The notes beneath the pieces were generated by a model. That model did no database searches and was not told the DNA's origin. It saw nothing but the letters and a program-made list of their open reading frames with translations. Positions 78 through 29,518 of a DNA stretch of 64,000 nt are shown here, piece by piece (position 1 is the stretch's first letter; the number at the start of each line of letters is the position of its first letter). Source of the stretch: Parvularia atlantis. Taxonomy: Eukaryota. The stretch covers positions 1-64,000 of the forward strand of contig CALSCO010000122.1 of the NCBI GenBank assembly GCA_943704415.1, written 5' to 3'. The position numbers were made by a program, and so were the translations under genes.

Positions 78-536
78 ATGCGCTTCCTCGCTGAGATCGA
101 CGCGATGGTGCGCCTGACCGTCGATCGGCTGCGAGCGAGCAGCGAGGACGACGATGCCCAGGTGCCGCGCGCCTGCCCGCCTGCTTGTGTGCGCGCCGGC
201 TCAAGGGCTGCGCCGCAGTACGTCGTCTGCGTCACAAGCGACCACAGCACACCGCTGTACCTGGGCGATCACAGCCACGAGCCGGTCGCGTTCGCTGCGT
301 GCACGATCGACGCGCTGTGGTCGCCCGCGCACCGCGACACGCCCGCGCGCGCGTTCGACGAGGTCACGGCCGCGGCGCGGGGCGACCTGGGCCGCTTCCC
401 GGGCAGCGAGGTTATGCTGCTGTTGCGCTCACTTGCAGTTGACACCTATGGCCGCGCCGCGTTGGTGTCTCGAGTCGGTCGCGCCGCGCGCCGGTGCGGC
501 CCTCCCCGCGCGGCTGCCGTGAGGCGTCTATGCTGA
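78..536 (+). CDS. 3' part of an archaeal-type (ApgM-like) cofactor-independent phosphoglycerate mutase / metalloenzyme; 5' end lies outside the window
   Basis: Exons give MRFLAEIDAMV...|YVVCVTSDHSTPLYLGDHSHEPVAF...FDEVTAAARGDLGRFPGSEVM. The DHSTP/GDHS-EPV metal-binding motif and FDE..A.RG.LGRF tail are typical of ApgM-like iPGM. The true stop is uncertain (see findings). Confidence 0.7.
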   Translation: MRFLAEIDAMVRLTVDRLRASSEDDDAQVPRACPPACVRAGSRAAPQYVVCVTSDHSTPLYLGDHSHEPVAFAACTIDALWSPAHRDTPARAFDEVTAAARGDLGRFPGSEVMLLLRSLAVDTYGRAALVSRVGRAARRCGPPRAAAVRRLC

Positions 537-1965
537 GCGCGGCGCGTCGGCAGACGGCGCGTACTGTGTCGTGGCCGCGACCAAGCTGTCGGGCGAGGAG
601 TGGAACGGGTGCCTGTTTGTCGTGACGCCACCGCGCGCGCCTGCGCCCGTGCCCGCACCGGCCGAGGGCGACACCGCGCCGCTGCCGCCGCCGCCGCCGA
701 CGACGACGACGCGCATCGCGCTGGCCAAGGGCGCGCCGGGCGTGGCGGGCGTGACCGAGACGACGCACGGCAACGTCGACGTGCAGTGGTGCGTGCTGAC
801 ACACAGCGCGCGCGCGCTGGAGCTGACGCGCCTCGTGGCAGGCTCGGGCGCGACCGCCTCGTCGTGGCCAACGACAGCGGACGCGTGCAGGTGTGGGCGT
901 TTGACGGTGCGCCGCGCCCGCGCTCGCGTGGTCGGCGGCTCTGACGGCGAGCGCAGACAGCGCACATGACCAGCGGCCGCTGCTCGCCCTCGCGAGCGAG
1001 TACCACTACCACGACGACACGGTCCAGGCGCTGGCCGTGCGCGCCGCTGCGCCCGACGCAGCACCCGCCGGCGAGCGTCACTTCCTGACGGGCAGCTGGG
1101 ACAGCAGGTGGCGCGGTGCGGTGCCTGGCGCGGTCGGTCGTGCTGACGACGCACACGCGCATGCGCAGCGTCAAGCTCTGGACGATGGCCGACGGGCACG
1201 ACGCAACATTCGCCGTCTTTGACGGTGCTCGCGCACGCGGGTCGTGCGCGCAGGCGGGGCCGCCTGACCTGCGCGCAGACCACAGCGACATGGTCTGGGA
1301 CGTCGACTGGAGCTGCGACGACGCCAACGTGTTTGCGTCGGCCGGCCAGGACTGCCGCCTGCTGCTGTGGGACCGCCGGCAGCAGAGCCCGACGGCGGTC
1401 GTGCGCGACGTGGCGCCGCTGCAGGCTGTCGCGTTCGACCCGCTCACGCCGCACCAGGTCGCGACCGGTGCGCGCCGCTTTGGCCGCGTCGTCGTCGTGG
1501 GTCACGCAGGGCTAACGTGCTCCGCCCGCGCGCGCAGGCAGCCAGAAGGGCGTCGTGAGCGTGTACGACGCGCGCGCCCTCAAGACGCCCGTCACGACCA
1601 TCCCCGAGCACGGCGAGCACCCGCGGCCCGTGTGCTGCCGGGCGCATACGTCGGTTCCGCGCTGTGCTCACCCCTCCGCGCCGTGCAGATCACGCGCATG
1701 GCCTTCCGCCCCGACGGCGCGCAGCTCGCCTTCGTCTCGGACGACCTGCACACGCGTGTGTACGAGGCGCCGTGTCTGCGCGCCGTGTGCGTTTTGACCC
1801 CGGTGGCTCGCCTCTCGTCCGCCCGCTGAGCCCCTCCGCGCGCACAGCCACGACGACACGACGCACCGCGACTTCCCGCGCGGCCTGTGCTGGCTGCCCG
1901 GCGCGCACGCGCTCGTCACCGCGGGCTGGGACGGCGACGTGGCCTACCAGCCTATACGCAACTAG
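448..1965 (+). CDS. WDR77: WD40 protein, MEP50/WDR77-like (methylosome subunit), multi-exon
   Basis: Spliced N-terminus [33 protein letters not shown] resembles the MEP50 N-terminus. WD repeats [34 protein letters not shown]. Stop TAG at 1963-1965. Confidence 0.7.
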
Positions 1966-1991
1966 TTTCCAGCGGCTATTTGTCGGTACAC

Positions 1992-3172
1992 ATGGCAGCG
2001 AGCGAGGCAAACGTGCGCGCGCGCCGCGAACCGTTTCGCGCCAAGAGCCGCGTTCAAAAACGCCGCAGCGCGCGCAGCACGAGGAGCGGCAGTACCTCGC
2101 GCTCGTGCGCGACATCATCGACACGGGCGACCGCCGCGGCGACCGCACGGGCACCGGCACGCTGTCCAAGTTCGGCTGTCAGATGCGCTTCAGCCTGCGC
2201 GACGGGCGCCTGCCTCTGCTCACGACCAAGCGCGTGTTTCTGCGCGGCGTGCTTGAGGTGCGCGCGCACTGCACTACGCTGCGCTGCACAGCTGCGCTCA
2301 CGACGGCGCAGGAGCTGCTCTGGTTCATCTCGGGCGACACAAACGCCAAGACGCTGCAGGCGCGGGACGTGCACATCTGGGACGGCAATGCGTCGCGCGA
2401 GTACCTCGACTCGATTGGCCTGCCGGTGCGCAGCGGCCGGCCGCATCGCGCGCGCGAACGAGCTCATGCCGGCACGCCACCCGCAGCATCGCGCGGCGGG
2501 CGACCTCGGCCCCGTCTACGGCTTCCAGTGGCGCCACTTTGGCGCCAAGTACGTCGACATGCACACCGACTACACCGGGCAGGGCGTGGACCAGCTTGCG
2601 GAGCTGATCCACAAGATCAAGACCAACTCGACCGACCGCCGCCTCATCCTCTCGGCCTGGAACCCGGCCGACCTGAAGCTTATGGCGCTGCCGCCGTGCC
2701 ACATGTTTGCGCAGGTGCGCCGTGCGCGCGCACCGTGCGGCCGATCGCGGGCGGACGAGCGCGAGCGTGCGCAGTTCTATGTCAGCAAGGGCGAGCTCTC
2801 GTGCCAGATGTACCAGCGCTCGTGCGACATGGGTCTGGGTGTGCCGTTCAACATTGCGAGCTACTCGCTGCTCACACAGTGCGTGCCGTGCGCGGGGCGC
2901 GGCGTGCGAGCGCGGCCGACCGTTGCGCGCGCAGCATGCTGGCTCACGTGTGCGGGCTCAAGGCGGGCGACCTGATCCACGTCATGGGCGACACGCACGT
3001 GTACATCAACCATGTTGAGGCGCTCGAGGAGCAGCTCAAGCGCGAGCCGCGGCCCTTCCCGACGCTGCGCATCAACCCGGCCGTGACCGACATTGACGCG
3101 TTCCGGGCGAGCGACTTTGAGGTGGTCGGGTACGAGCCGCACGGCAAGATCGCGATGCAGATGGCCGTGTGA
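1992..3172 (+). CDS. TYMS: Thymidylate synthase, monofunctional (no DHFR domain), 5 introns (about 2013-2068, 2258-2311, 2426-2486, 2715-2774, 2879-2934)
   Basis: [76 protein letters not shown], and C-terminal MQMAV*. Confidence 0.97.
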
Positions 3173-27513: not shown

Positions 27514-28366
27514 TCACCTGTCGTAGTACAGCGAGCCATCCGCGGGCCCGAGGTAGCCCAGGCCGATTAGCAGCACGTCGACGAAGCACCACACGCCTAG
27601 CCCGCCCAGCGACAGCAGCTTGAAGATGCCCCTTGCAATTAGGCACGCGGCGAGCGTGAGGCATGGCCGCAGCTGTGTCGACCCGCGCACCACCCGATGT
27701 AGCCGAGGTAGAAGCGGTCGGCCGCGAACCCGCCCAGAAATAGGCTGTAGAAGAAGGCCGTGGTGCGGCTGAGCCCGCGCGTCCAGTTGCAGGGCACGTT
27801 GGCCGTGAAGGCACGGTTGCCTGGCCATGCCACGTCTTGCGCGTGAGCACGGGGCAGCGGCTGCGAGCGGCAGCGTTGCCGCACCGAGGCACACGACGTC
27901 GTCGCGCACGGTGCACAGCGTCGGGTACCGCTCGACGGCCACGGTCGTGTCGCAGCCGGTCACGGGCGCACACGTTCGCGCTTCAGCCGGTGTTTGGTAG
28001 CAAAAGCGACAGTCGAACGTGACGTTGAACGTGCGCGGCCCCTGCGCGTCGGTGCCGTCCGCTCAGCGGCGCTGCACTATGCGCGTGCACGTGCTGCTGG
28101 GTCCGCGGCGCACCGAGCACGTCGCGTTGGCCGGCGCCGTGCACTCGGCCGTCGCGGGCTGGCCGTACACGCATGACGTGTTGAACGCGCACGCGAGCTG
28201 CACGGCCGGCAGCTCGGCGCACTGCAGCGCGCCCCATCAGCAGACGCGCGCGTCCCTTCTCCCACAAGGGCACCACCCGCACCGGCTGCTGCGCCGCCGC
28301 AAGGCCCACGGCGAGCGCCACGGCCACGAGCGTGACCAACACGGCTGTGTATGCGCGCGTTGCCAT
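27514..28366 (-). CDS. TM2D3: TM2-domain protein, TM2D3/Almondex-like
   Basis: Signal peptide, Cys-rich ectodomain, CNWT..LFLGGFAADRFYLGY..KLLSLGGLGVW..DVLLIGLGYLGPADGSLY. Confidence 0.88.
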
Positions 28367-28370
28367 AGAT

Positions 28371-29518
28371 TTACAAGCGCGACCGGTACACGATCATCGC
28401 GACCGTCCCGAGCGTGAGCGTGAACCTGGCGTCGCCCGCGTGCGTGAGCGCGTGCAGTCTGTCGCCGGGAGGCGCGCGCGCGCACCAGGTCAGGGCGTAC
28501 TGCAGGTGGTCGTTGCGCAGCGTGATGGTCGGCTCGCGCGCGAGCGGGAGCGCGTCGCGGCGCTGCAGCGTGCTCCCTGCGCGCGCGCGCACGCACATGT
28601 GCGCTCAGCGACGCCTCGCCACATGGCGCCGTGCACAACGCACGCTGCGTCGGCGGCGCGGTCGCGTCCACGACGATCGGCAGCGTGCCGGCCGCGACGG
28701 CCATCTGGTTCGCGTCGATAAAGAACCACTTGTTCTTGTGTGGCTCGTTGTCCGGCACGAACGAGCTCGGCTGTGACGCACGCGACAGTGAGCGCGCTCG
28801 CGCGACGCGTGCACCGGGTGCGCACCTTGCCGTTGAAGATGCGCCGCAGCCCGACGACCGTCACCGGCCCCGCAACCAGCGTCTCCGGCCGGGTGTCGGG
28901 GTGTGCCTTGGCAGTCGGCACGAAGCCGCGGTTCACGAGCACCTCCTCCCTGGCGCCCGCGTCAGTCGACTCGCGCGTGCAGTCGAGATGGCCGCACCCG
29001 GACGGCAGGACGAGCGGCGTGACGATCTCGATACCGTTGACGCCGTCGCGCACGCGCGGGCCGACGTAGAGCTCTCTGCTGTGGTCGTACATGCCTGTGA
29101 CGCGCACGCGGCGCGTGGCGAAGACGGACGAGGCTGAGCTGCGTCTCCCGCTCAGCCAGGCTGACCGCGAGCACGCGCCGCATCGCACGCACGCGGCCTC
29201 GGAGGGCGCCGGCGCGGTTGCATCCAGCTCGACCGGCTCCTGCGCGAGCGTCGACTCGATGCGGCGGATGAGGTCCTCCTTCCACTGCAGGCGGTAGAGC
29301 TGCATGCAGCGCACGCAAGCTCAGTCGTGCGCGGTGCGGTCCGACGCGCGCACCTGCCAAACGCCGAGGCCGAACGTCGTGGCCGGCACGGTCATGAGCC
29401 ACCACAGCGAGTGCGGCTGCTGCTGTTGCTGCGACGGCCGTGCGGCCTGCGCGTGCAGGGGCCGCGCGCCACCGCGAACGGCCACGCGCAAGGTGACGCG
29501 CACGCTCCGTGTCAGCAT
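28371..29518 (-). CDS. SURF1: SURF1/Shy1 cytochrome c oxidase assembly protein
   Basis: Mitochondrial-type presequence, TFGLGVWQ|LYRLQWKEDLI, VLVNRGFVP, LRNDHLQYALTW|FTL...; stop TAA at 28373-28371. Confidence 0.93.

What the first reader, a model, noticed from the sequence alone, without database searches (positions are those of the whole stretch)
448..28373. Window-wide pattern of operon-like tandem gene spacing in an intron-rich eukaryote
Seen stop-to-ATG gaps on the same strand: iPGM/WDR77 overlapping, WDR77/TYMS 26 nt, MRM2/UBXN4 9 nt, DUF1295/CIA30 37 nt, TED1/USP1 31 nt (or overlapping if ATG 23159 is used), SURF1/TM2D3 4 nt. Intergenic gaps are shorter than the introns. No consistent AG acceptor precedes the downstream ATGs, so SL trans-splicing is not obviously the explanation. 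Inference: a systematic polycistronic or promoter-inside-neighbour expression system. This is the best candidate for an undescribed system in this window.
Basis: partly seen in the sequence, partly recalled or inferred. Interest (0 to 1): 0.85.

Follow-up and report, generated by a model that had tools for sequence, protein, structure and literature searches.

The report
Ultra-tight gene packing in an amoeba
In this intron-rich, fungus-related amoeba neighbouring genes sit only tens of bases apart in every orientation, so the operon-like spacing likely reflects extreme genome compaction, with tiny promoters and overlapping transcript ends, rather than bacterial-style multi-gene messages.

Summary
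The six short same-strand gaps are real (-89, 4, 9, 26, 31, 37 nt), but they are a selection: three more tandem gaps are 124-287 nt, and tail-to-tail (median 46) and head-to-head pairs (median 61), which cannot be operons, are about as tight (27 adjacencies, Kruskal-Wallis p=0.27). Only 9 of 27 pairs are tandem; the longest same-strand run is 3. A spliced RNA contig bridges WDR77/TYMS, but contigs also bridge 3 of 3 tail-to-tail pairs examined, so bridging does not show polycistronic mRNA. Two inferred RNA 5' ends fall on the A of TCAG, 21 and 27 nt before ATG and 13 nt apart, with no leader. Upstream ORFs are long with 3-13 internal AUGs, failing the green-algal leaky-scanning criteria. Against plain compaction: tandem gaps are shorter than half a divergent plus half a convergent gap (P about 0.01), so signals must lie inside neighbours. 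Best reading: microsporidia-like overlapping transcription in an intron-rich nucleariid (0.68); translated polycistrons are not excluded (0.15). The scan noted similar packing in Ostreococcus, and a trp cluster in this genome.

The parts
219..536 (+). Last exon of cofactor-independent phosphoglycerate mutase (iPGM); frame open to TGA 534-536, overlapping the WD40 gene start by 89 nt and ending inside its first intron
   Evidence: RNA contig covers only 216-455; tail 41 aa against homologue median 15
448..1965 (+).
   Evidence: Model; WD40 match; six of its introns (from 906 on) seen as GT-AG joints in run X1
1966..1991 (+). 26-nt tandem spacer WD40/TYMS, bridged by one spliced RNA contig; CCAGC with its A at -21
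   Evidence: record 3 (1848-2012 continuous, then joint 2012-2069)
1992..3172 (+). Thymidylate synthase gene
3173..3194 (.). Control: 22-nt convergent spacer TYMS/PHD-finger gene, bridged by an RNA contig
   Evidence: record 1 (2935-3275)
8009..8051 (.). Control: 43-nt divergent spacer PHD-finger gene/FtsJ methyltransferase
8052..9060 (+).
9061..9069 (+). 9-nt tandem spacer; an A+T-rich patch with GTCA at -20 lies in the last codons of the upstream gene
9070..10979 (+).
10980..10994 (.). Control: 15-nt convergent spacer UBX gene/CIA30, bridged by an RNA contig
   Evidence: record 3
10995..11688 (-). CIA30-domain gene
11689..11725 (-). 37-nt tandem spacer DUF1295/CIA30 with a G run and a GU-rich tract
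   Evidence: RNA not resolved (table cut)
11726..12784 (-). DUF1295 gene
12804..12820 (.). Inverted repeat (CTGAC, 7 nt, GTCAG) in the 61-nt divergent spacer DUF1295/phosphate transporter; inferred RNA 5' ends at 12805 (-) and 12819 (+), each on the A of TCAG: likely back-to-back initiators
   Evidence: Record lengths and positions, walked along the exon models (inference)
15133..15141 (.). Control: 9-nt convergent spacer phosphate transporter/cytidylyltransferase, bridged by an RNA contig
   Evidence: record 5
20284..20419 (-).
21551..23172 (+).
   Evidence: label recalled
23173..23203 (+). 31-nt tandem spacer; in-frame alternative ATG at 23159 overlaps the upstream stop
23204..25715 (+).
27227..27513 (-).
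27514..28366 (-). TM2-domain gene
28367..28370 (-). 4-nt tandem spacer SURF1/TM2-domain gene; no TCAG-like word in -38..-9
28371..29518 (-). SURF1 gene
29519..29544 (.). Control: 26-nt divergent spacer SURF1/gene K
   Evidence: gene K has no family match
57931..58054 (+).

Best explanation
Genes in this window are packed tens of bases apart in all three orientations, and each likely has its own minimal promoter starting RNA about 20-30 nt before the ATG, while 3' ends likely run into the neighbouring gene. Shown: the spacing (median 46 nt over 27 adjacencies) and RNA contigs that run across convergent and tandem junctions. Inferred: start sites on a TCAG-type initiator in an A+T-rich patch (two 5' ends deduced by arithmetic); at the -89, 4 and 9 nt junctions that patch lies inside the last codons of the upstream gene; the upstream mRNA is cleaved somewhere inside the downstream gene, and longer read-through forms may exist; the downstream protein is made from its own capped mRNA, because a scanning ribosome would have to pass 3-13 AUGs to reach it on a shared message.
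For: Gaps by orientation: tandem median 31 (n=9), convergent 46 (n=9), divergent 61 (n=9), Kruskal-Wallis p=0.27, tandem versus the rest p=0.13; tandem pairs 9 of 27, longest same-strand run 3. Divergent spacers of 26-61 nt (5 of 9) hold two starts, so promoters plus 5' UTRs are tiny. Run X1 contig ends work out to 12805 and 12819, each on the A of TCAG (4 such positions in 972 upstream bases), and 15839, 6 nt past one; UTRs 21, 27, 22 nt and no extra leader letters. A+T in -40..-5: divergent 0.39, tandem-downstream 0.45, gene-body background 0.30. [CT]CA[GC][CT] in 7 of 17 divergent and 4 of 9 tandem-downstream genes, background 0.17. X1 contigs bridge 3 of 3 convergent junctions examined, so overlap of ends is general. 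Upstream ORFs at short gaps are 678-1140 nt with 3-13 internal AUGs, 7.3 per kb against 8.3 elsewhere, p=0.30. Neighbours belong to unrelated families. The iPGM contig stops 7 nt into the WD40 gene (weak). Precedent: PMC2803860.
Against: Tandem gaps are shorter than half a convergent plus half a divergent gap (resampled P about 0.01; fixed pool 0.001; pooled null 0.04; Fisher 0.13), and three lie below the additive minimum of 17.5 nt. One spliced contig runs from the WD40 gene through the TYMS start and splices TYMS intron 1, with similar depth on the next TYMS contig (15.9, 14.7), as a shared message would. TCGA occurs in 7 of 17 divergent but 0 of 9 tandem-downstream upstream regions; the wider post-hoc word in 12 of 17 against 3 of 9, Fisher p=0.10. 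The A+T patch before tandem genes could equally be the upstream gene's 3' signal (convergent stops are also A+T-rich). No 5' end of any tandem-downstream gene and no poly(A) site was observed; SURF1/TM2D, NOC3 and USP1 have no initiator-like word. An unreviewed note reports an operon-order trp cluster elsewhere in this genome (e1-10703753, not tested). One 64-kb window, n=9 per class.
Confidence: 0.68

Rival explanations
1. Short-gap tandem pairs are transcribed mainly as one mRNA, and the downstream ORF is translated by reinitiation after the ribosome stops at the long upstream ORF.
For: Tandem gaps shorter than the additive expectation (P about 0.01); 4- and 9-nt gaps suit reinitiation; spliced contig across WD40/TYMS; TCGA word missing before tandem-downstream genes (0 of 9); note e1-10703753 (untested).
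Against: Reinitiation after long ORFs is rare and needs special signals (PMC3542737, passages); UGGGA lies in the last 90 nt of 1 of 5 upstream ORFs (where it encodes a WD motif) and 1 of 19 others, and no 6-mer is shared by more than 2 of 6 junctions. Convergent and divergent pairs are about as tight and convergent pairs are bridged too. Tandem pairs are not enriched. A+T patch and initiator-like words occur before tandem genes as before divergent ones.
Confidence: 0.15
2. Leaky scanning on bicistronic mRNAs, as in green algae: ribosomes skip a weak upstream start and begin at the downstream ORF.
For: Gap sizes resemble Auxenochlorella bicistronic spacing (median 40 nt, 10.1101/2024.07.24.605010, passages); 4 of 8 tandem-upstream starts lack a purine at -3.
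Against: Purine at -3 is 12 of 19 in other genes, so no clear difference. Upstream ORFs are 678-1140 nt against algal medians of 291-357 nt, and each has 3-13 internal AUGs, whereas one restored AUG abolished downstream expression in the algal reporter (same paper). In algae bicistronic gaps are 20-60 times shorter than other same-strand gaps; here all gaps are short.
Confidence: 0.03
3. Operon-type pre-mRNA resolved into single mRNAs by spliced-leader trans-splicing or a similar cut-and-cap step.
For: An acceptor-like site lies 9 nt before the WD40 ATG (score 8.3, within the range of real acceptors).
Against: 1 of 9 tandem-downstream genes has such a site (background 0.09); 4- and 9-nt gaps leave no room; three inferred 5' ends show no extra letters and no leader-like loose end was listed in window 1-2330; no long same-strand runs; no Rfam family reached gathering score in the window.
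Confidence: 0.04
4. Some of the tightest junctions are artefacts of gene modelling (true starts further downstream or true stops further upstream), and the rest is ordinary compaction with signals inside the spacers.
For: The iPGM tail is 41 aa past the conserved motif against a homologue median of 15 (4 of 130 reach 40), and its RNA contig stops at 455. N-termini of the UBX, UCH and TM2 genes were not checked against homologues. The model made a few wrong intron calls elsewhere (shown pieces).
Against: The DNA shows no other stop in the iPGM frame and X1 agrees letter for letter to 455. TYMS, FtsJ, SURF1 and WD40 ends fit their domains; the sulfate adenylyltransferase model matches a transcript-derived protein at 571 of 574 residues with the same first and last residues; 9 joints match modelled introns (one with a boundary about 12 nt off).
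Confidence: 0.1

Closest known systems
Overlapping transcription in compacted genomes: microsporidia Encephalitozoon cuniculi and Antonospora locustae (PMC2803860, passages, which also summarises Williams et al. 2005, not read)
   Same: Very short spacers in all orientations (there 77-416 bp at one locus, 35 bp head-to-head with one palindromic signal for two genes), very short 5' UTRs, transcripts that run into neighbours, signals displaced into adjacent genes; same broad lineage (Holomycota).
   Different: This organism has about 13 introns per modelled gene in the window (319 in 24 genes) and 70% G+C; microsporidia are intron-poor parasites (recalled). The start word here is TCAG-like rather than CCC/AAATTT. 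Monocistronic ends were mapped there by RACE and are not mapped here.
Ostreococcus (PMC2367439, passages) and Blastocystis (PMC5608401, passages) compact nuclear genomes
   Same: Short spacers, overlapping 3' ends that merge neighbours in assemblies (8.9% of Ostreococcus EST clusters); Blastocystis is also intron-rich with tiny introns.
   Different: Spacers here (median 46, mean 87 nt; one window) are shorter than the genome-wide figures given (Ostreococcus mean under 200; Blastocystis medians 224-546). The Blastocystis TGTTTGTT motif for poly(A)-made stops is not present after the iPGM motif end (read).
Polycistronic read-through transcripts of Agaricomycetes (PMC4503453, passages)
   Same: Tandem genes of similar ORF size can share a read-through RNA while each is also transcribed independently; this could coexist with my best reading.
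   Different: Mean inter-ORF distance there is 364 nt; shown by long reads, which are lacking here.
Green-algal bicistronic genes read by leaky scanning (PMC7896298; 10.1101/2024.07.24.605010; passages of both)
   Same: Same-strand ORFs a few to tens of bases apart, sometimes overlapping; functionally unrelated pairs are possible.
   Different: There the short gap is special to the pairs, ORF1 is short and AUG-poor, and the downstream gene lacks a promoter mark; here gaps are short everywhere and ORF1 is long and AUG-rich.

Membership tests
Overlapping transcription of compacted genomes (microsporidia type) | Spacers short in all orientations | tested here: met
   Medians 31, 46, 61 nt; 17 of 27 gaps at or below 62 nt
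Overlapping transcription of compacted genomes (microsporidia type) | Transcripts reach into neighbouring genes | tested here: met
   X1 contigs bridge 3 of 3 convergent junctions examined and 1 of 2 tandem junctions seen in full; unstranded contigs, so extent and strand are unknown
Overlapping transcription of compacted genomes (microsporidia type) | Very short 5' UTRs with a start signal next to the ATG | tested here: met
   Three inferred 5' ends at 21, 27, 22 nt, all at divergent genes; inference from record lengths
Overlapping transcription of compacted genomes (microsporidia type) | Tandem-downstream genes have their own capped monocistronic mRNA | not testable with these tools
   Only contigs are held; motif evidence is mixed
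Green-algal bicistronic genes (leaky scanning) | Inter-ORF gap much shorter than ordinary neighbour spacing | tested here: not met
   Tandem versus other gaps p=0.13; modest excess of short tandem gaps only
Green-algal bicistronic genes (leaky scanning) | Short upstream ORF | tested here: not met
   678-1140 nt against 291-357 nt medians
Green-algal bicistronic genes (leaky scanning) | Upstream ORF free of competing AUGs | tested here: not met
   3-13 internal AUGs each; 7.3 against 8.3 per kb, p=0.30
Green-algal bicistronic genes (leaky scanning) | No promoter mark at the downstream gene and no poly(A) after the upstream gene | not testable with these tools
   No ChIP, cap or long-read data; no poly(A) signal could be derived from 18 convergent 3' ends
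SL trans-spliced operons (nematode or kinetoplastid type) | Acceptor before each downstream ATG | tested here: not met
   1 of 9
SL trans-spliced operons (nematode or kinetoplastid type) | Common leader on mRNA 5' ends | tested here: inconclusive
   No extra letters at three inferred 5' ends of divergent genes; none listed; no tandem-downstream 5' end seen
SL trans-spliced operons (nematode or kinetoplastid type) | Runs of same-strand genes | tested here: not met
   9 of 27 pairs tandem, longest run 3
Termination-reinitiation after a long ORF (TURBS type) | Stop and start within a few bases | tested here: inconclusive
   Met at 2 of 9 tandem pairs (4 and 9 nt)
Termination-reinitiation after a long ORF (TURBS type) | UGGGA within 40-90 nt before the stop | tested here: not met
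   1 of 5 upstream ORFs, at -39, absent at the 4- and 9-nt junctions; motif from PMC3542737
Fungal read-through polycistronic units | Single long reads holding two full ORFs, with independent transcription of both | not testable with these tools
   No raw or long reads among the 3 runs listed

The most novel reading that the evidence does not exclude
This nucleariid routinely translates full-length, intron-rich downstream genes from shared mRNAs by reinitiation after long AUG-rich ORFs, without a spliced leader, a TURBS or leaky scanning: a nuclear multi-gene expression mode not found in my paper searches for this lineage, which the trp cluster noted elsewhere in the genome might use.
Probability: 0.15. 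Interest if true: 0.8.

Novelty: new member of a known kind. Interest (0 to 1): 0.35.

Why it matters
If the best reading holds, a nucleariid amoeba has squeezed promoters and terminators to a level described for parasites and endosymbiont nuclei while keeping many introns per gene, with spacers in this window shorter than the figures given for Ostreococcus and Blastocystis. A 17-nt element that appears to start two genes 13 nt apart would be a handy minimal bidirectional promoter, and the -89, 4 and 9 nt junctions are test beds for how initiation and 3' cleavage coexist inside coding DNA. It also warns that contigs spanning two genes in this genome are not evidence of operons, which bears on other claims from the same assembly. 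If the rival holds, it would be a new route to polycistronic translation in a relative of fungi.

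Tried and rejected
No whole genome is held, so no genome-wide gap distribution. Run X2 has a contig across the FtsJ/UBX junction (8965-9142, depth 2.6), rejected as evidence because 4 of the 8 X2 pieces shown span a whole modelled intron: DNA or unspliced RNA. Run X3 behaves as DNA and may not be independent. Contig depths (FtsJ bins 5-17 against 40.6 for the UBX/CIA30 contig) would favour a separate promoter, but the tool says contig depth cannot rank genes, so it is not used. 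The hole at 456-604 in X1 proves nothing. A 28-nt intron at 411-438 would fuse iPGM to the WD40 gene in frame; rejected because X1 is continuous over 216-455 and 95% of introns are 47 nt or longer. Search for a poly(A) signal in 18 convergent 3' ends gave only stop-codon-linked words. Lower GC3 in the last 10 codons of upstream genes: no difference (p=0.80). Conservation of gene pairs could not be tested: the iPGM exon found no relative in JGI metagenomes (597 candidates, 0 confirmed); the TYMS exon gave 80 loci of 68-84% identity from a partial scan (11 of 64 parts), none carrying the WD40 or PHD neighbour. The organism's own transcript-derived iPGM or WD40 protein, which could have shown transcript ends, was not found. 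Rfam: nothing at gathering score. The sigma-70 scan is not relevant to a eukaryote and found nothing. The widened initiator pattern (9 of 17 divergent, 6 of 9 tandem, background 0.22) was chosen after seeing the sequences and is not counted as a test.

Full report
Question. I checked the gaps, measured all other neighbours in the window as a control, laid the available RNA contigs, and tested the features that define the known eukaryotic multi-gene systems.

Organism and gene models. The window is 67-75% G+C; no whole genome is held. One exon of the sulfate adenylyltransferase gene is 100% identical to a EukProt protein whose source label is Nuclearia_a, and most named hits below it are fungal, so this is a nucleariid amoeba. 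A described nucleariid genome has 19.24 Mb, 8.58 introns per gene and a mean intron of 60.67 bp (PMC9492541, passage); I use it as a comparator and did not establish that it is the same species. I read the whole window and built spliced models with a self-trained script between hand-chosen starts: 28 genes, 25 with full models, 319 introns in 24 of them, median 56 nt. Checks: the sulfate adenylyltransferase model matches the transcript-derived protein at 571 of 574 residues; 9 GT-AG joints in run X1 fall on modelled introns; 34 of 59 single exons matched a Pfam family at E up to 0.01. The script also made some wrong intron calls inside genes, shown by continuous X1 pieces. Genes K, X and Z had no family match and gene Y was not scanned.

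The observation. All five positive gaps are as stated (26, 9, 37, 31, 4 nt) and the iPGM frame overlaps the WD40 gene by 89 nt. But the window has 27 adjacencies: 9 tandem (-89, 4, 9, 26, 31, 37, 124, 136, 287; median 31), 9 convergent (9, 15, 22, 37, 46, 52, 83, 100, 255; median 46) and 9 divergent (26, 34, 43, 60, 61, 89, 207, 243, 323; median 61). The three classes do not differ (Kruskal-Wallis p=0.27; tandem shorter than the rest p=0.13). Dropping the 7 pairs that involve genes K, X, Y or Z gives medians 28.5, 29.5 and 60.5 (p=0.11). Fifteen of 27 gaps are shorter than the median intron. Tandem pairs are a third of all pairs and the longest same-strand run is three genes, unlike an operon-organised genome. 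Several long gaps probably contain 5' UTR introns (clear for the ribosomal protein gene at 15851-16054, read).

A result against plain compaction. A tandem gap holds one terminator and one promoter, so it might be expected to equal half a convergent plus half a divergent gap (median 70.5). Six of nine at 37 nt or less is unlikely under that model (P 0.001 with the pools fixed; about 0.01 with the pools resampled); against the pooled other gaps P is 0.04 (Fisher 0.13). Three gaps (-89, 4, 9) are below the additive minimum of 17.5 nt. So at tandem junctions signals are shared, lie inside the neighbour, or are missing.

RNA. Three runs hold the region, all as contigs. X1 is spliced. Laid on 1-16600 (8 X1 rows shown, 792 rows of all runs hidden), its contigs cross 3 of 3 convergent junctions in reach: TYMS/PHD gene (2935-3275), UBX gene/CIA30 (record 3) and phosphate transporter/cytidylyltransferase (record 5). 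Laid on 1-2330 (4 records), one 831-nt contig runs through six WD40 introns, the WD40 stop, the TYMS start and TYMS intron 1. The iPGM contig ends at 455 without a loose end, and 456-604 is not covered. Bridging needs only about 31 nt of overlap, is seen where no shared message is possible, and so does not separate overlap from polycistronic RNA.

Start sites. From record lengths and positions, walked back along the exon models, five contig ends could be placed; two fall inside the models and say nothing. The other three give 5' UTRs of 21 (DUF1295, 12805), 27 (phosphate transporter, 12819) and 22 nt (cytidylyltransferase, 15839). The first two land on the A of TCAG in the two arms of an inverted repeat at 12804-12820; the third lies 6 nt after such an A; such positions are 4 of 972 upstream bases. 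This is inference: it assumes that the unseen parts follow my models, and contig ends are not cap sites. It suggests an initiator-type start 20-30 nt before the ATG, no spliced leader, and two starts 13 nt apart. With UTRs of this size a gene 4 or 9 nt behind its neighbour's stop would start inside that neighbour's last codons. The -40..-5 region is A+T-rich before divergent (0.39, n=17) and tandem-downstream genes (0.45, n=9) against 0.30 in gene bodies, and [CT]CA[GC][CT] occurs in 7 of 17 and 4 of 9 (background 0.17, one of 13 patterns tried). Against this: TCGA is in 7 of 17 divergent but 0 of 9 tandem regions (divergent pairs share their spacer, so these are not independent), A+T richness also marks 3' ends, and three tandem genes show no such word.

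Known multi-gene mechanisms. Green-algal bicistrons are defined by a gap far shorter than ordinary spacing, a short ORF1 (medians 291-357 nt) and sensitivity to a single internal AUG (10.1101/2024.07.24.605010, passages; PMC7896298, passages). Here ORF1 is 678-1140 nt with 3-13 internal AUGs and no depletion (32 in 4356 nt against 277 in 33438; p=0.30). Trans-splicing: 1 of 9 tandem-downstream genes has an intron-strength acceptor before its ATG. Reinitiation after long ORFs needs special signals (PMC3542737, passages): UGGGA is in 1 of 5 upstream ORF ends and no word is common to the six junctions. Fungal read-through units coexist with independent transcription (PMC4503453, passages) and cannot be told apart from my best reading without long reads.

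The iPGM overlap. Homologues end a median of 15 residues after the G.F.G.E motif (130 of 153 proteins had the motif near their end; 4 of 130 have 40 or more), the window frame 41. Either the tail is a real extension through WD40 exon 1 and intron 1, or the RNA is cut earlier; a stop made by polyadenylation, as in Blastocystis (PMC5608401, passages), is conceivable at 447 or 462 but has no support here. Unresolved.

Mechanism, committed. Each gene likely starts at its own minimal initiator 20-30 nt before the ATG (inferred from two or three 5' ends, all at divergent genes); 3' ends likely run into the next gene whatever its strand (overlap shown by contigs; extent not shown); at the tightest tandem junctions the promoter likely lies in the upstream coding end (inferred); downstream proteins are likely made from their own capped mRNAs (inferred from AUG content; untested). 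Confidence 0.68. Translated polycistrons by reinitiation 0.15, modelling artefacts 0.10, trans-splicing 0.04, leaky scanning 0.03.

What is known. In Encephalitozoon cuniculi overlapping transcription was found at over 80% of loci analysed, 5' UTRs are under 7 nt, signals can sit in adjacent genes, and one palindrome may serve two genes 35 bp apart (PMC2803860, passages). Ostreococcus has mean spacers under 200 bp and merged 3' ends (PMC2367439, passages); Blastocystis medians are 224-546 bp; nucleomorphs are similar (PMC6009652, three passages). For nucleariids I found no discussion of spacing or polycistrons: 'nucleariid' with 'polycistronic' gave 2 unrelated papers (listing only); the main text of PMC9492541 has no occurrence of intergenic, operon or polycistron, and its supplement assumes polycistrons are rare, tests only single transcript ORFs against neighbours, and reports 284 falsely merged gene models for that nucleariid (file 2, part 11); a preprint on another nucleariid has none of these terms (10.1101/2023.12.07.570557; its supplements are closed). 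Searches were seen as listings. The library lacks most subscription papers, so absence from print is not established.

Verdict. The spacing is real and striking, but it is window-wide compaction rather than a tandem-specific, operon-like design. It is best filed as a new member of the overlapping-transcription architecture of compacted genomes, unusual for being intron-rich and possibly among the tightest, on the strength of one window. Interest 0.35; the reinitiation reading (0.15) would deserve 0.8.

Noticed in passing
window 58637-58708 (+): C/D-box snoRNA-like stretch in the long second intron of the Sm-like gene; best Rfam match snoR1 at 24 bits (gathering 49), E 0.02, with a well-matched middle part. 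The first long intron (about 58160-58215) has another A+T-rich stretch between GATG and CTGA words with no Rfam match.
   Followed up: partly
window 15900-15990 and 58085-58170 (+): The long 5' introns of the ribosomal protein L30 gene and of the Sm-like gene both carry a C-rich tract followed by GGAT repeats; possibly a shared element of highly expressed genes.
   Followed up: no
window 12804-12820, 29519-29544, 36110-36169, 55115-55148: Divergent spacers are often centred on short palindromic words (TTCGAA, TTTGCAAA, TCGA next to an A or T run); TCGA is in 7 of 17 divergent upstream regions. Candidate bidirectional promoter element.
   Followed up: partly
window 219-536 (+): The phosphoglycerate mutase is of the cofactor-independent type with archaeal structures as its PDB matches; no close relative was found (best phmmer hit 56% identity). 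Origin not examined.
   Followed up: partly
window 60771-63052 (-): Fungal-type ATP sulfurylase with a C-terminal APS-kinase domain; two unnamed proteins at 92% and 83% identity (P0006, P0007) point to unsampled relatives.
   Followed up: no
window 25816-27226 (-): Gene Z, about 315 aa with 9 exons, no Pfam match for three exons; its start is uncertain.
   Followed up: partly
window 60116-60718 (+): Intronless 200-codon frame with His-Asp-Glu-Arg repeats and no family match; may not be a gene.
   Followed up: partly
window 36170-41631 (+) and 41678-55114 (-): A BRCA2-like gene with a duplicated repeat at 37440-37640 (label recalled; no Pfam match for the one exon tried) and a 3,100-aa ubiquitin hydrolase gene with 74 modelled exons.
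   Followed up: no
window 11689-11712 (-) and 31060-31085 (-): GU/U-rich tracts follow the DUF1295 stop (tandem) and the Sec10/EXOC5 stop (convergent); possible downstream 3'-processing element, two cases only.
   Followed up: no
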